Source: an uncultured Gammaproteobacteria bacterium (lineage in GTDB: Bacteria > Pseudomonadota > Gammaproteobacteria > Arenicellales > JAANXG01). Taken from it: 51,802 nucleotides of DNA. The notes under the pieces are model-generated. The model did no database searches. It was not told the DNA's origin and worked only from the letters and a program-made list of their open reading frames with translations. Location of the stretch: contig CALZGZ010000040.1 in assembly GCA_945787105.1 (NCBI GenBank), positions 1 to 51,802 of the forward strand. The letters run 5' to 3'. Within the stretch, counting starts at the first letter, position 1. Every line of letters begins with the position of its first letter. Both the position numbers and the translations under genes were made by a program. This document shows positions 3,556 through 43,986 of this stretch, one piece after another.

Positions 3556-4671
3556 ATGATCCAGTCGACGCCGCGCGATACGTTTAAACGGGTTCGGGAT
3601 ATGCCCCCACCGGTGTTGACCATCGGGGTGCTCGGCTGGCTGCGAACCAACCTGTTTTCATCGGCCGCGAACACGGTGTTGACACTGTTTGCGGTCTATC
3701 TGCTCTATGTTGCGATACCGCCGGTGATCAATTGGGCATTCATAGCTGCGGATTGGGTCGGTACGAGCCGCGAGGATTGCACCGGCGGCGGCGCTTGCTG
3801 GGTGTTCGTCCTCGCGCGGCTCAATCAGTTTATCTACGGCTTCTATCCCGACGCCCAGCAATGGCGCGTGAATTTGGCTTTCGGTCTATTGATCGCGCTG
3901 TTCGTGCCGCTGTTCGTAAGGAGTTTCCCCAATAAAACCTGGCTGGGTTTTTTTCTGTTGTTCGGTTATCCGATCATCGCGTTCGTATTGTTCTACGGCG
4001 GCGTACTGGGCTTGCCCTTAATTTCTACTGACCAGTGGGGCGGATTAATGCTGACGCTGATCATCTCTGCGGTGGGGATGGTCGCGTCTTTGCCGCTCGG
4101 TGTTTTATTGGCGCTGGGTCGCCGTTCGGAGATGCCCATCGTCCGTGCTTTCAGTGTGGCCTTCATCGAACTTTGGCGAGGCGTACCGCTGATCACTGTG
4201 TTGTTCATGTCGTCGGTTATGCTGCCGCTGTTCTTACCCGAAGGCGTAACCTTCGATAAGTTGCTGCGTGCGCTGATCGGAATCACTTTGTTCGAGTCTG
4301 CGTATATGGCGGAGGTTGTCCGCGGTGGGCTGCAGGCGATCCCGACCGGACAATATGAGGCGGCCAAAGCGCTGGGCCTCAACTTCTGGAAAAGTATGTT
4401 GCTGATTATCCTGCCCCAGGCACTGAAGCTGGTGATTCCGGGAATCGTGAATACTTTAATTGCGCTGTTTAAAGACACGACGTTGGTTATTATCATTGGG
4501 CTTTTCGATATTCTTGGGGCAGTAGAATCCGCCATCAAAGATCCCAGTTGGCTGGGATATGCCGTCGAGGGTTATGTGTTCGCGGCGTTCATATTCTGGA
4601 TTTTCTGCTACGGTATGTCGCGCTACAGTCAGGGGCTGGAACGTAAGTTGAGCACCGGCCACAATCGCTGA
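3556..4671 (+). CDS. aapM: Amino-acid ABC transporter permease
   Basis: 371-aa membrane ORF starting 4 nt after the aapQ stop. It carries the EAA-loop-like motif AEVVRGGLQAIPTGQYEAAKALGL. Confidence 0.88.
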   Translation: MIQSTPRDTFKRVRDMPPPVLTIGVLGWLRTNLFSSAANTVLTLFAVYLLYVAIPPVINWAFIAADWVGTSREDCTGGGACWVFVLARLNQFIYGFYPDAQQWRVNLAFGLLIALFVPLFVRSFPNKTWLGFFLLFGYPIIAFVLFYGGVLGLPLISTDQWGGLMLTLIISAVGMVASLPLGVLLALGRRSEMPIVRAFSVAFIELWRGVPLITVLFMSSVMLPLFLPEGVTFDKLLRALIGITLFESAYMAEVVRGGLQAIPTGQYEAAKALGLNFWKSMLLIILPQALKLVIPGIVNTLIALFKDTTLVIIIGLFDILGAVESAIKDPSWLGYAVEGYVFAAFIFWIFCYGMSRYSQGLERKLSTGHNR

Positions 4672-4947
4672 CATGGTCGTATATAACACCAAGGCGCCCC
4701 GCCCCTGTTTGTTGGATATACACCGGGGGGACCCGCAGTGTCTTTTCTAGGAAATAACGACATCGATGCGCCGGATTGCTCGGCAAAGCCAGGGGCGGGA
4801 CTATCCCGGCGCTGGCTCGGTCTCGAACGCCTGTACTTGCGCTTCACTCAACCCATAGCTACGGCTATGCATTTCGCTCCAACGCGGCGTCCAACCGCCC
4901 GATCCCTTCGCCATCATCCGGGATCCTTGGTGCAATACACGACCTGG
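4672..4947 (+). mobile_element. MITE-like repeat, full-length copy A (276 bp) in the aapM-aapP spacer
   Basis: Imperfect TIRs are catggtcgtatataacaccaag (4672-4693) and cttggtgcaatacacgacctgg (4926-4947), 17/22 complementary. The 88-nt core 4802-4889 is 83/88 identical to copy B and 70/88 to copy C. Confidence 0.85.
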
Positions 4948-4955
4948 GAGACAGC

Positions 4956-5735
4956 ATGAACGACATCGAATCACCACAATCCAGCTCCCAGGTCGCCGAC
5001 GACGTCATCATCCTCATCGAGGCGATGCATAAGTGGTATGGACAGTTTCATGTGCTCAAAGAAATCAACTTGAAGGTAAGAAAAGGCGAGCGCTTCGTGA
5101 TATGCGGTCCGTCCGGTTCCGGAAAATCAACCTTGATTCGTTGTATCAACCGGCTCGAGGAGCACCAAAAGGGGCGCATCGTGGTTGACGGCACCGAACT
5201 CACCGATGACCTCAAGAACATCGAAAGCGTACGCCGTGAAGTTGGAATGGTGTTCCAACATTTCAATTTATTCCCCCACCTGTCCATTCTCGAGAACTTG
5301 GCGCTGGCACCGATCTGGGTGCGCAAGCTGCCCCGCGCAGAGGCAGAAGACATCGCTATAAAATATCTCGAACGCGTCAAAATTCCTGAGCAAGCCAGCA
5401 AGTATCCGGGCCAACTGTCCGGCGGTCAACAACAGCGGGTGGCCATTGCCCGAGCATTGTGTATGAATCCGAAGGTCATGTTGTTCGATGAGCCGACTTC
5501 GGCGCTGGATCCGGAAATGATCAAAGAAGTCCTGGATGTCATGGTCGAACTCGCCGAGGAGGGTATGACCATGCTGTGCGTGACTCACGAAATGGGGTTC
5601 GCGAAGACGGTGGCGAATCAGATGATCTTCATGGATGAGGGACAAATCGTCGAACAGAACGAACCCGAAGAGTTCTTTACCAACCCCCAGTCCGAACGCA
5701 CCGAGCAGTTCCTGAGCCAGATCCTTACCCATTAA
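4956..5735 (+). CDS. aapP: Amino-acid ABC transporter ATP-binding protein
   Basis: Walker [10 protein letters not shown], signature [15 protein letters not shown] and Walker [12 protein letters not shown] are present. I start it at ATG 4956 (MNDIESPQ..., SD gggag 4946-4950). The 4776 start in the ORF track lies inside the repeat element. Confidence 0.92.
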
Positions 5736-15626: not shown

Positions 15627-15688
15627 GTCATGTTTCGGTTACACCGCTTTACAACCGCACGCCTAGAGCTCGACTGTAAAAATATCCA

Positions 15689-15752
15689 GCCCGCATATTG
15701 CACCACGGCGTTCCGCCACCATCATCCGGGATCCTTAGTGCAACACATGCGC
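15689..15752 (+). repeat. Internally deleted derivative (~64 bp) of the MITE-like family, copy D
   Basis: gcccgcatattgcaccacgg ... ccatcatccgggatccttagtgcaacacatgcgc contains left-TIR and right-arm/right-TIR sequences of the family joined without the core. Confidence 0.7.
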
Positions 15753-15765
15753 TCGCAGTGATGTC

Positions 15766-25350: not shown

Positions 25351-25525
25351 CTAGCCCGCGCTCCTCACCAAGCGCCCCGCCCCTAGCCCGAATAGTTCAC
25401 CACGGCTCGCGGAGGATTAGGCGCACACTCGGGCACCCAGCGTCACCGCGGGCATTGACTACATTCCACGCTCCAAACAAAATGTTAGCTCTTCTTTTCA
25501 GCGCCGTGGTGCAATAGACGGGCTG
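25351..25525 (+). repeat. MITE-family related element, copy F (~175 bp, divergent interior)
   Basis: The left end ctagcccgcgctcctcaccaagcgccccgcccct and right end ccgtggtgcaatagacgggctg match the family TIRs and the first ~20 nt of the copy A left arm. The interior is not alignable by eye. Confidence 0.55.
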
Positions 25526-25843: not shown

Positions 25844-25959
25844 AGCCAGACTCCGAACGTTGATAGTGACCTGGCCCGCATTTTTCACCGGCGGCGCCAC
25901 ACCCCGAGTCCGCGCTAGCGCTTAAGGCATTGAGCCAAACAACGTGTTACCGCAGTCAC

Positions 25960-26032
25960 GCCTATCCCCGCCCCGGGCTGGTTCTCGCGTCCTGCGCCAG
26001 CATCCGGGATGCTAATGAAAAATGCGCGCTAG
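25960..26032 (+). repeat. Internally deleted MITE-family fragment, copy E (~73 bp)
   Basis: gcctatccccgccccgggctggttctcg matches the core start. cgtcctgcgccagcatccgggatgctaatgaaaaatgcgcgctag matches the right arm and TIR of copy C. Confidence 0.55.
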
Positions 26033-26105
26033 ACGCAATGCGCTATTATAGTCGACGATAATCTTTTACTTAAATGCAGGCGCTGGTACGAAGGTATTTT
26101 CCCAC

Positions 26106-34356: not shown

Positions 34357-34463
34357 TCTTTCCCTGACGAACCGCGACCCACGTATGTAACACGCCACCG
34401 TCCGGTGCGGTCCTGGCGCCAGTATTGCTGTTTTTGTCCCCGCGCCTGATAGTTATTGCTCAA

Positions 34464-34740
34464 CTAGCCCGCATATTGCACCAAGGATCGCGGATAATGG
34501 CGAAGGGATCGGGGCGACTGGTTTCCCCTGCTGCGCGGGGACGAGCGCCGCGCTGGAGCGAAATACATAGCCGTAGCTATGGGTTGAGTGAAGCGCAAAT
34601 CCAGGCGTTCGAGACCGAGCCAGGGCCGGGATAGGCGTAACTTCGAATACAAAACGTCGCACCGAACATTTATCGACTTCATTGTCGCCAACAAACTGTT
34701 AGGCCCTCTTTTCGCCGACTTGGTGCAATATGCGGGCTAG
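34464..34740 (-). mobile_element. MITE-like repeat, full-length copy B (277 bp), perfect 22-bp TIRs
   Basis: ctagcccgcatattgcaccaag (34464-34485) is the exact reverse complement of 34719-34740. The core 34546-34633 (inverted) matches copies A and C. It lies between convergent gene ends. Confidence 0.9.
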
Positions 34741-34867
34741 CACCGATCCAATTCCGCCGCCAGCATGCCGGTTCACCAGGCGCTGCTGATACCCGTTATC
34801 GGCATGCACCAACAACGCCCAGCTTAGAAAAACGGGCAACAGGCCCCAAACATGTCAACGGAAACTA

Positions 34868-43225: not shown

Positions 43226-43502
43226 GCAGCGCGTATATTGCTCCAACGCGCTCCACCCCGATTCATAGTTTATACACCGGGGAGGCGCGCAGGGTCGGTT
43301 CCAGGAAAGGGCGCTATTCGATGCTCTACGTCGCTTGGCAAGCATCGGGTCGGGACGATCCCGGCGCTGGTGCGACCACGAACACCTGCACTGGCGCTTT
43401 ATGCAATCCCTAGCTACGGCTATGTATTGCGCCCCAGCGCGGCGTCTCGCCGCCCGCGTCTTGCGCCAGCTTCCGGGATCCGTGTTGCAATATGTCGGTT
43501 GA
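43226..43502 (+). mobile_element. MITE-like repeat, full-length copy C (277 bp)
   Basis: The 88-nt core 43357-43444 aligns without gaps to copy A (70/88). The left arm shares tatacaccgggg... with copy A. The TIRs are degenerate (cgtatattgctccaac / cgtgttgcaatatgtcgg). Confidence 0.8.
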
Positions 43503-43986
43503 GCACCGCCATGTTGCGAAGATGCCGATCACGATCTGGATCTGTTACCGCCGGGACCATTGATATGGTACGCACGTAATGTGCTGGTAGCGCAAACTCC
43601 TTGGCACCGGCGATGACAAACTGTCTGTACCAGTGATAAGGCGCTAGATCAGGATTAACGTAATTGGGGTCTGCGACATACATATATGCCGCAGTGCGGT
43701 CAGAATTCACGTTTACCGGAATCTCGAGTTTCAAATAACCCCTGCCTTCGAAGCTATCGAGTAAGATTTGCTGTGCCGCGGAGATATGATAGACCACGCC
43801 ATGTATGACATCATCGGGGTTGTTCGTGTGGTAAGCGTCACATTTCGCCGAACCGTCACCACTGCGCTTGTGAAACCGCAGCTGATGGCCCGCTATATGG
43901 CCTGCGACGCCAGCCGCAAACTCCCCTACACGAGCTCGCAATCTCGCGCTCAACATGTTCGAGCCAAAGGCAAAATAGCGCATCAC
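43420..43986 (-). CDS. Gamma-glutamylcyclotransferase (AIG2/GGCT-like) family protein
   Basis: MMRYFAFGSNMLSARL is the GGCT N-terminal signature. The last ~26 codons and the stop lie inside MITE copy C. Confidence 0.75.
   Translation of the reverse strand: MMRYFAFGSNMLSARLRARVGEFAAGVAGHIAGHQLRFHKRSGDGSAKCDAYHTNNPDDVIHGVVYHISAAQQILLDSFEGRGYLKLEIPVNVNSDRTAAYMYVADPNYVNPDLAPYHWYRQFVIAGAKEFALPAHYVRTISMVPAVTDPDRDRHLRNMAVLNRHIATRIPEAGARRGRRDAALGRNT

What the first reader, a model, noticed from the sequence alone, without database searches (positions are those of the whole stretch)
34464..34740. Type copy of a ~277-bp MITE-like family: perfect 22-bp TIRs, conserved 88-nt hairpin core, six copies in 52 kb
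34464-34485 is the exact reverse complement of 34719-34740. Full-length relatives lie at 4672-4947 (276 bp) and 43226-43502 (277 bp), in the opposite orientation to this copy. Deleted or variant derivatives lie at 15689-15752, 25351-25525 and 25960-26032. The 88-nt core aligns without gaps in all three full copies: A versus B is 83/88 and A versus C is 70/88, by hand. At its centre is the hairpin catagc-tacg-gctatg. All copies are intergenic or at gene ends, and no transposase is present in the window, so this is a non-autonomous element or an unusually long REP-type repeat. The outermost 6-7 nt of the ends differ between copies but stay self-complementary within each copy (A: ggtcgt.../...acgacc; B: agcccgc.../...gcgggct). 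That points to sub-families or to selection for end pairing. I cannot match it to a named repeat family from memory.
Basis: seen in the sequence. Interest (0 to 1): 0.7.

Follow-up and report, generated by a model that had tools for sequence, protein, structure and literature searches.

The report
Structured MITE family of IS1380 insertion sequences
The repeat is real: it is a roughly 250-270 bp non-coding mobile element that borrows the ends of IS1380-family insertion sequences, is widespread in uncultured Gammaproteobacteria and beyond, and carries an unusually well-conserved folded interior whose role is still unknown.

Summary
The window, from an uncultured gammaproteobacterial MAG, carries three full copies, three internally deleted copies and one solo end.

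**What it is.** A MITE.
- The ends are about 20-bp inverted repeats flanked by Y-TA-R.
- Related Thioalkalivibrio strains lack the element precisely, leaving a single CTAG.
- A metagenome scan with the end sequence found 1.59-1.63 kb elements with the same ends. Each encodes an IS1380-family transposase.
- The named relatives ISPa33 and ISPosp7 have the same kind of ends and flanks.
- The window holds no transposase, so mobilisation in trans is inferred.

**What is unusual.** The interior is not derived from the IS. The whole element folds as a three-way junction:
- P1 is the paired ends.
- P2 is a roughly 120-nt hairpin with a conserved apex (UAGC-CRUM-GCUA).
- P3 is a variable arm.

P2 shows strong compensatory variation (92% of cells paired; 21 of 29 pairs changed on both sides). 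Wobble pairs favour one strand (G-U:A-C 51:9, and 65:25 in an independent set). This points to selection on a single-stranded form, RNA or ssDNA.

No Rfam family, plasmid, E. coli genome or searched paper matches it.

**Verdict.** A new member of a known kind. The function of the fold is open.

The parts
34464..34740 (+). Copy B, full length (277 bp), with the folding strand on +. The outer C/G and TA sit at 34464-34466 and 34738-34740.
   Evidence: Perfect 22-bp inverted ends. CM hit of 95.8 bits. RNA fold of -127.6 kcal/mol, z = -6.85.
34464..34485 (+). Left inverted repeat of B (P1 5' strand): CTAGCCCGCATATTGCACCAAG.
   Evidence: Exact reverse complement of 34719-34740. 19 of 22 bases match the end of the IS1380 element in L131, read.
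34486..34632 (+). P2 of B: a long irregular hairpin with the apex CAUAGC-CGUA-GCUAUG at 34566-34581.
   Evidence: Consensus structure and covariation.
34525..34546 (+). Nested GC-rich mini-hairpin (CCCCTGCTGCGCGGGGACGAGC) in the 5' arm of P2. It is absent from A and C.
   Evidence: Alignment gap. Unique in the window. Recurs at the same spot in other copies.
34634..34716 (+). P3 module of B. It includes the ACAAAnnGU motif and is unrelated to the P3 of A and C.
34719..34740 (+). Right inverted repeat of B (P1 3' strand).
4672..4947 (-). Copy A, full length (276 bp), with the folding strand on -. It lies between the permease and ATPase genes of an ABC transporter operon.
   Evidence: CM hit of 139 bits. 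Folds as P1-P2-A-P3, -137.5 kcal/mol, z = -6.98. Gene context.
43226..43502 (-). Copy C, full length (277 bp), the most decayed. Its ends no longer pair and it has one mismatch in the apical stem.
   Evidence: CM hit of 104 bits. 73.6% identity to A over the whole length. Fold.
15686..15754 (-). Mini derivative: both ends plus the first ~15 nt of the P2 5' arm, with the rest deleted.
25383..25525 (+). Derivative lacking P2 (left end + P3 + right end).
   Evidence: Its P3 resembles that of L050.
25871..26033 (-). Derivative with the central 76 model positions of P2 deleted.
   Evidence: CM hit at 25935-26015, 21.4 bits, E = 0.0024, with model positions 29-105 missing. Sequence.
25351..25374 (+). 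Solo end-like sequence CTAGCCCGCGCTCCTCACCAAGCG, abutting the copy at 25383.

Best explanation
[quoted passage not shown] They use the ends of a clade of IS1380-family insertion sequences, the relatives of ISPa33 and ISPosp7.

**Shown**
- The element is bounded by roughly 20-bp inverted repeats of the form (R)CCCGYATATTGCAY....
- It sits in Y-TA-R sites.
- It is present or absent between related strains with exact boundaries.
- Its end sequence is shared with 1.56-1.63 kb elements that encode an IS1380-family DDE transposase.

**Inferred**
- That transposase, encoded elsewhere in the genome, binds the MITE ends and moves the element in trans. It duplicates TA, or possibly the whole YTAR.
- Copies then decay, lose hairpin modules by deletion, and are replaced at the same site.
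- The interior does not come from the IS. It folds, together with the ends, into a three-way junction (P1 ends, P2 conserved hairpin, P3 variable arm).
- One strand of this fold is under selection in the proliferating lineage.

**My best guess for the fold (about 0.35).** It acts in RNA made by read-through transcription. It forms a compact, self-contained module whose paired ends make an RNase III-type stalk and whose apex binds a protein. A role as folded single-stranded DNA during mobilisation is the main alternative.
For: **Copies and distribution**
- They include Thioalkalivibrio denitrificans and T. sulfidiphilus, many uncultured Gammaproteobacteria, a Zetaproteobacteria MAG, Acidobacteria, and shorter relatives in Flavobacteriales.

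**Boundaries and flanks**
- Typical length is 240-270 bp.
- 44 of 61 distinct copies have TA on both sides. The outer bases are Y on the left and mostly R on the right.

**Mobility**
- Metagenome contigs of related strains skip exactly 256 nt (L032 7395-7650) and 258 nt (L048 7405-7662). A single CTAG remains.
- Orthologous site B holds a different sub-family in one relative: 68% identity, against 78-85% in the flanks.
- It holds an inverted copy in another relative.
- Two further relatives have only a 64-78 bp spacer there.

**Partner**
- L151:70-1661, L131:1064-2655 and L181:3133-4761 carry the same ends around one 438-448 aa ORF.
- That ORF matches Pfam PF13701 (E 1e-168) and NCBIfam NF033539 'IS1380 family transposase' (E 1e-122 to 1e-130).
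- ISPa33 and ISPosp7 have the same kind of ends and CTAG, CTAA or TTAG flanks.

**Non-autonomy**
- No IS1380-type transposase is in the window.
- No gene family is consistently adjacent in 108 loci.

**Fold**
- 92.1% of cells are paired. 163 cells are changed on both sides, against 49 +/- 6 in shuffles. Pairing drops to about 30% when partners are slid.
- 21 of 29 pairs show compensatory change.
- 37 of 63 elements give the three-way junction as their minimum-energy fold. P3 has about 20 different closing helices.

**Strand bias**
- G-U:A-C is 51:9 in P2 and 42:16 in P1.
- The alifold energy is -26.8 against -15.4 kcal/mol for the other strand. 26 of 27 sequences are more stable on the sense strand.
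- The bias is reproduced in copies picked by their ends only: 65:25, p = 3e-5.
Against: - Trans-mobilisation was not observed. No genome was shown to hold both the MITE and the IS: the IS copies come from metagenome contigs and plasmids.
- The duplication length is unresolved.
  - 15 non-palindromic flank pairs fit a TA duplication and 2 fit 4 bp.
  - One ISPa33 copy has CTAA on both sides.
  - A characterised IS1380 member, IS1247, makes a 5-bp repeat (PMC3281130).
- There is no direct evidence of an RNA.
  - The element has no sigma-70-like promoter.
  - Its orientation relative to neighbouring genes is random: 17 against 13.
  - The only RNA hit is one metatranscriptome contig that may be DNA carry-over.
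- P3 shows no wobble bias, 9:11.
- Seven of nine copies not chosen by the apex pattern have at least one apex substitution. Individual loci therefore seem unconstrained.
Confidence: 0.75

Rival explanations
1. The fold works as single-stranded DNA, not RNA. One strand of the element folds so that P1 brings the two ends together. That folded strand is the substrate or a cofactor for mobilisation, in the manner of IS200/IS605, REPINs, integron attC sites or single-strand origins.
For: - The strand-specific wobble bias extends to the terminal helix, 42:16.
- Derivatives in the window have lost exactly one hairpin module, as expected if hairpins extrude in DNA.
- Conservation looks lineage-level rather than locus-level.
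- Orientation relative to genes is random and there is no promoter. That is awkward for an RNA role.
Against: - The matching IS encodes a DDE transposase. From general knowledge, this class acts on double-stranded ends.
- A position where G-U is the commonest pair (columns 54/85) is more natural in RNA than as a G-T mismatch in DNA.
- No HUH or tyrosine recombinase was seen near copies.
Confidence: 0.2
2. The fold has no function. The interior is simply a palindromic filler whose arms are kept alike by DNA-level processes. Its wide distribution reflects horizontal spread with the IS.
For: - MITEs in general fold into hairpins, as reviewed in PMC2229807 and PMC3184786 (abstracts listed).
- Many copies carry apex mutations.
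- P3 shows no wobble bias.
Against: - Arm homogenisation would give Watson-Crick pairs with no strand preference. The observed ratios are 51:9 and 65:25.
- Compensatory changes separate sub-families in all six helices.
- AT-rich Flavobacteriales relatives keep the apex while the rest has drifted.
Confidence: 0.15
3. It is an IS630/Tc1-mariner-type MITE, a TA-duplicating element like Correia or Stowaway, rather than an IS1380 derivative.
For: - The flank statistics fit a TA duplication inside a CTAG-like target.
- From general knowledge, that is the IS630 pattern.
Against: - Every full-length element found with these ends encodes an IS1380-family transposase.
- No IS630-type gene was found between such ends.
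Confidence: 0.05
4. It is a REP/REPIN-type repeat spread by a RAYT (IS200-like HUH) transposase.
For: - The hairpin is maintained by compensatory change.
- It is intergenic, in high copy number, and breaks assemblies.
Against: - It is much longer than REPINs, and its ends match a DDE IS.
- A motif search for IS200/RAYT-like ORFs in 3,663 ORFs of the fetched loci found none.
- It spans several phyla.
Confidence: 0.03

Closest known systems
ISPa33, ISPosp7 and ISMaq4 clade of the IS1380 family (transposase NF033539 / PF13701)
   Same: - The terminal inverted repeats are of the same kind. ISPa33 has CCCGGATTTCTCATGA. ISPosp7 has CCTGAATATTTCAC and CCCGCATATTTCAC.
- The flanks are the same: CTAG, CTAA or TTAG.
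- Metagenomic members carry CCCGCATATTGCA, identical to the MITE.
   Different: - The ISs are 1.56-1.63 kb and encode a roughly 440-aa transposase, 48-56% identical to the metagenomic partners.
- They lack P2 and P3.
- Only about 20 nt at each end is shared.
Correia / NEMIS elements of Neisseria
   Same: Both are small inverted-repeat elements with TA-containing flanks and no linked transposase. Both fold into a long hairpin through their ends. (This rests on general knowledge and on PMC4853749.)
   Different: - There is no sequence relation.
- Correia elements are 100-155 bp and confined to one genus.
- This family is about 250 bp with a three-way junction, and spans classes and phyla.
ERIC / IRU (enterobacterial repetitive intergenic consensus)
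   Same: Both are imperfect palindromes in intergenic regions, with longer variants made by internal insertions.
   Different: No similarity in 5,426 E. coli genomes. ERIC has no known IS partner.
REPINs mobilised by RAYTs
   Same: Both are hairpin elements whose arms co-evolve.
   Different: The size, the ends and the partner enzyme class all differ. No RAYT was seen.
piggyBac transposons (eukaryotes)
   Same: - IS1380 transposases serve as the prokaryotic outgroup of piggyBac transposases (PMC10813416).
- TTAA or CTAG flanks next to CCC...GGG ends recall the piggyBac pattern TTAA-CCC...GGG-TTAA (general knowledge).
   Different: The host domain differs. The duplication here may be only TA.

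Membership tests
MITE (non-autonomous inverted-repeat transposon) | Small size and no coding capacity | tested here: met
   Typical length is 240-270 bp. Only spurious ORFs overlap the element. No conserved neighbouring gene.
MITE (non-autonomous inverted-repeat transposon) | Terminal inverted repeats | tested here: met
   22/22 in copy B. 15-26 nt in most copies of 60+ loci.
MITE (non-autonomous inverted-repeat transposon) | Target-site duplication | tested here: inconclusive
   TA on both sides in 44 of 61 copies. Empty sites keep one CTAG. The length of the duplication, 2 or 4 bp, is not settled.
MITE (non-autonomous inverted-repeat transposon) | Many dispersed copies with presence/absence polymorphism | tested here: met
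   for the copies. for the polymorphism and site turnover.
MITE (non-autonomous inverted-repeat transposon) | An autonomous element with the same ends | tested here: met
   IS1380-family elements L131, L151, L179, L181, and ISPa33 and ISPosp7.
IS1380-family derivative | Mobilised by an IS1380-family transposase | not testable with these tools
   This needs a transposition assay. Here only the shared ends and flanks are shown.
IS1380-family derivative | Interior derived from the IS by deletion | tested here: not met
   The IS copies contain no P2: no apex match, and no model hit in L131, L151, L179 or L181. Similarity ends about 20 nt from each end.
Any Rfam 15 RNA family | Match to a curated covariance model | tested here: not met
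   0 hits at gathering thresholds over the whole window. 0 hits at E <= 10 over 34400-34800.
REP / REPIN | A cognate RAYT (IS200-like) gene; short REP hairpins in inverted pairs | tested here: not met
   No IS200/RAYT-like ORF in the fetched loci. The architecture is a 250-nt three-way junction.
IS630/Tc1-type MITE | An IS630-family partner with the same ends | tested here: not met
   All partners found belong to the IS1380 family.
ERIC | Sequence similarity to the enterobacterial consensus | tested here: not met
   No match in the E. coli genome collection.

The most novel reading that the evidence does not exclude
The element is a mobile cassette for a structured nucleic acid of about 230-270 nt. 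The paired ends serve both as transposase sites in DNA and as a processing stalk or end-joining helix in a single strand. The conserved P2 apex recruits a protein. If so, an IS1380/piggyBac-type transposon lineage would depend on, or spread, a folded RNA or ssDNA three-way junction. That would be either a new class of bacterial non-coding RNA, or a single-strand step in a transposase family thought to act only on duplex DNA.
Probability: 0.2. Interest if true: 0.75.

Novelty: new member of a known kind. Interest (0 to 1): 0.5.

Why it matters
**For annotation.**
- This repeat breaks assemblies of many environmental Gammaproteobacteria. Many hits lie at contig ends.
- It creates spurious ORFs and altered gene ends.
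- The covariance model and the end motif would let it be masked.

**For transposon biology.**
- It links a very widespread MITE to the ISPa33/ISPosp7 branch of IS1380.
- A survey of 183,232 genomes found 97.4% of MITEs confined to one genus (PMC11602168). This family is found across classes and phyla.

**For gene mobility.** IS1380 elements are known to mobilise adjacent DNA from a single copy (the 'TMos' described in PMC3281130). Hundreds of chromosomal copies of matching ends are potential substrates for such events.

**For RNA and DNA structure.** The fold has covariation as strong as many accepted RNA families and a clear strand preference. This makes it a concrete test case for why MITEs fold.

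Tried and rejected
- **Rfam.** Searched at gathering scores and at E <= 10. Nothing was found.
- **Papers.** Exact-string search for the apex and the ends found nothing. Keyword searches found only general MITE and structured-RNA literature.
- **Plasmids, E. coli genomes and viral contigs.** No copy of the element.
- **A linked protein gene.**
  - Clusters of neighbouring ORFs were ABC ATPases, dehydrogenases, GGDEF proteins and similar paralogues.
  - End pairs 0.7-1.2 kb apart in genome loci simply flanked housekeeping genes, as did L227 and L145.
- **IS110 / bridge-RNA idea.** Rejected, because near-identical copies in one MAG have unrelated flanks beyond YTAR.
- **IS200/IS605, TnpB omega-RNA and REPIN ideas.** Rejected on the ends, the flanks and the absence of HUH genes.
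- **Apex invariance.** The 'invariant' apex in the first data set was an artefact of my search pattern. Copies chosen by their ends show covarying variants.
- **Orientation bias.** A first crude gene call suggested an antisense bias, 22 against 9. It vanished with GC3-based gene calls, 17 against 13.
- **Exact empty site for window copy B.** The intergenic DNA of the relatives is too diverged to align.
- **Sequencing runs for the window organism.** None could be listed.

Full report
**1. The observation**

The sequence at 34464-34740 has perfect 22-bp inverted ends. Two full-length relatives lie on the other strand at 4672-4947 and 43226-43502.

A and C are alike along their whole length (73.6%). 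B shares only its left end and the central core with them (B positions 11-171). Its right third is a different module.

The three 'derivatives' are real but extend further than stated:
- 15686-15754 is little more than the two ends.
- 25383-25525 has lost the core.
- 25871-26033 has lost the apex of the core.
- A solo end lies at 25351-25374.

tblastn with the partner transposase finds no copy in the window. The neighbours are ordinary chromosomal genes: rho, LPS-core enzymes, an ABC amino-acid transporter, polA, engB and thiD. The window is contig CALZIS010000005.1 of an uncultured gammaproteobacterial MAG, GCA_945787705.1. It is close to 'FCS_M_Gamma_074'.

**2. The family elsewhere**

The hosts are:
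- Thioalkalivibrio denitrificans and T. sulfidiphilus
- many uncultured Gammaproteobacteria, including Chromatiales, Arenicellales, Steroidobacteraceae, Sedimenticolaceae and Methylococcales
- one Zetaproteobacteria MAG with about 15 near-identical copies
- an acidobacterial MAG
- AT-rich shorter relatives in Flavobacteriales

Many hits sit at contig ends, as expected for a repeat that breaks assemblies. Elements are typically 240-270 bp.

No gene family is consistently adjacent. Orientation relative to neighbouring genes is random once genes are called by GC3: 17 antisense, 13 sense, 14 convergent and 9 divergent. Only 1 of 72 lies inside a gene.

The element is absent from 2.9 million viral contigs, from PLSDB plasmids and from 5,426 E. 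coli genomes. It matches nothing in Rfam 15, even at E <= 10. No paper in the library contains its apex or end sequence.

**3. Evidence that it moves**

Contigs from soda-lake metagenomes were laid on two T. denitrificans loci. Related strains skip exactly the element:
- 256 nt at L032 (7395-7650)
- 258 nt at L048 (7405-7662)

A single CTAG is left in each case.

Orthologous site B shows turnover:
- The window and FCS_M_Gamma_074 carry different sub-families there, 68% identical, while the flanking spacer is 78-85% identical.
- ES_Gamma_065 carries an inverted copy with the same right boundary.
- Two more distant relatives have only a 64-78 bp spacer.

The copies in the window that lack exactly P2, its apex, or everything but the ends fit deletion across hairpins.

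**4. Flanks**

Of 61 distinct copies, 44 have TA on both sides. The base outside is C or T on the left, and G or A (rarely T) on the right. The target is therefore Y-TA-R.

Among copies whose two flanking 4-mers differ:
- 15 keep the inner bases complementary, which fits a TA duplication with R...Y as the element's last bases.
- 2 fit a 4-bp direct repeat.

Five plasmid copies of the identical ISPa33 show CTAG/CTAG three times, CTAA/CTAA once and TTAG/CTAG once. A characterised IS1380 member, IS1247, makes a 5-bp repeat (PMC3281130). I therefore leave the duplication as 'TA, possibly YTAR'.

**5. The partner**

A metagenome scan with the end sequence alone returned mostly MITEs. It also returned end pairs 1,591, 1,591 and 1,628 bp apart, with no core inside.
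- Each surrounds one ORF of 438-448 aa.
- The ORF matches Pfam PF13701 (E about 1e-168) and the NCBIfam equivalog NF033539, 'IS1380 family transposase' (E 1e-122 to 1e-130).
- tblastn found a further full copy (L179), a second copy in tandem in L131 that shares one CTAG, and a fragment. It found none in the window or the genome loci.

The closest annotated relatives, at 48-56% identity, are ISPosp7, ISPa33 and ISMaq4. ISPa33 ends in CCCGGATTTCTCATGA. ISPosp7 ends in CCTGAATATTTCAC and CCCGCATATTTCAC. These resemble MITE sub-families seen in soil MAGs, Thioalkalivibrio and Arenicellales.

Only about 20 nt at each end is shared between IS and MITE. The interior is therefore not a deletion remnant of these ISs.

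**6. The fold**

A diverse 27-sequence alignment of the core gives a consensus hairpin of 29 pairs, 21 of them with compensatory changes. On this structure:
- 92.1% of cells are standard pairs.
- 163 cells are changed on both sides, against 49 +/- 6 in shuffles.
- Pairing drops to about 30% when partners are slid by 1-3 columns.

Folding whole elements gives the same architecture in 37 of 63 cases, including copy A:
- P1 is the two ends, about 21 bp.
- P2 runs from about position 22 to position 143.
- One A follows P2.
- P3 is closed by a 5-11 bp helix whose sequence differs between sub-families.

The fold prefers one strand:
- G-U:A-C is 51:9 in P2 and 42:16 in P1.
- The consensus energy is -26.8 against -15.4 kcal/mol.
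- 26 of 27 sequences are more stable on that strand.
- P3 shows no bias, 9:11.

My first data set was chosen by the apex, so its invariance there meant nothing. Among 42 copies chosen by their ends, the apex varies with covariation: CAUAGC/GCUAUG, CGUAGC/GCUACG, GAUAGC/GCUAUC and CAUGGC/GCCAUG. The inner UAGC...GCUA and a C-R-U-M loop are mostly kept. The wobble bias recurs at 65:25, p = 3e-5.

**7. Interpretation**

The MITE-of-IS1380 reading rests on direct sequence evidence. Only the act of trans-mobilisation is inferred.

The fold is harder to explain.
- Selection on a single-stranded form is the simplest explanation for the strand bias. The elements lie in both orientations relative to genes, so a strand-specific mutation bias should average out.
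- Many individual copies carry apex mutations. The constraint therefore seems to act on the lineage that proliferates, not on each locus.
- RNA is favoured by a position where G-U is the commonest pair.
- RNA is disfavoured by the lack of a promoter, the random orientation and the absence of clean transcript evidence. One metatranscriptome contig contains a copy, but DNA carry-over cannot be excluded.
- Folded single-stranded DNA is the main alternative. A functionless palindrome is less likely, given the bias.

**8. Novelty**

MITEs that fold are well known, for example Correia, ERIC, RUP and REPINs. I rate this as a new member of a known kind.

It is unusual in three respects:
- its breadth, set against a survey in which 97.4% of MITEs were genus-specific (PMC11602168)
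- its link to the IS1380/piggyBac-related transposases (PMC10813416)
- the strength and strand-specificity of its covariation

ISfinder and Dfam could not be queried, so a prior catalogue entry cannot be excluded.

Noticed in passing
window 34525-34546; also L034, L061, L081, L091, L111: A 22-nt GC-rich mini-hairpin (CCCCTGCTGCGCGGGGACRAGC) sits in the same internal loop of the P2 5' arm in members of different sub-families, in one to three tandem copies. It is either an optional extra arm or a tiny element with its own site preference.
   Followed up: partly
L036, L055, L093 (soil and other MAGs): An insert of about 52 nt lies immediately after the apical hairpin (GGCGCTCTCGCCCATCCCTGGGCTTCGCGCCATAAGTACTTCCTGTACAAAAG). 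It is another nested small repeat.
   Followed up: no
L010, L014, L075, L093, L107: The 5' arm of P2 next to the apex is replaced by a different GC-rich sequence (...GCGCAAGCCCCGCAGGGGTGAGGCGCAGGGA...), so the 5' arm is mosaic as well. In L010 the canonical left end still lies further upstream and the element is 336 bp long.
   Followed up: no
window 43420-43986 (- strand): The GGACT/AIG2-like ORF runs about 80 nt into copy C. As called, its last ~27 codons are encoded by the MITE, so the insertion may have replaced the original C-terminus.
   Followed up: partly
window 4672-4958: Copy A lies inside an ABC amino-acid transporter operon, between the permease stop codon (4669-4671) and the ATPase start codon (4956). 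The ATPase Shine-Dalgarno sequence GGGAG begins right at the edge of the element.
   Followed up: partly
L109 / L111 / L112 (orthologues of window 34357-34867): The same CTAG site holds three different elements in three related MAGs: two sub-families and one inverted copy. This implies repeated insertion or replacement at one site.
   Followed up: partly
L131 860-2660: Two IS1380 copies lie head to tail and share a single CTAG, as if one had inserted into the flank of the other.
   Followed up: partly
L151, L131, L181, L179: In the ISs, the end downstream of the transposase gene (CCCGCATATTGCAYGAG) is closer to both MITE ends than the upstream end is (for example CCCGAATATTTCATCAAT). The MITE may be built from two copies of one IS end.
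   Followed up: no
window 1-51802: The cumulative GC skew rises to about 12-14 kb and then falls steadily, a possible skew turning point.
   Followed up: no
L015 (Saccharimonadales MAG), L028 (Flavobacteriales MAG): Shorter elements of about 150 bp keep the same apex but have quite different inverted ends (TAGACCTCTCCCACTACCTCCC; TAGTGGTTCAATTCA). They are still flanked by TA. This suggests that the P2 apex is older or more constrained than the ends.
   Followed up: no
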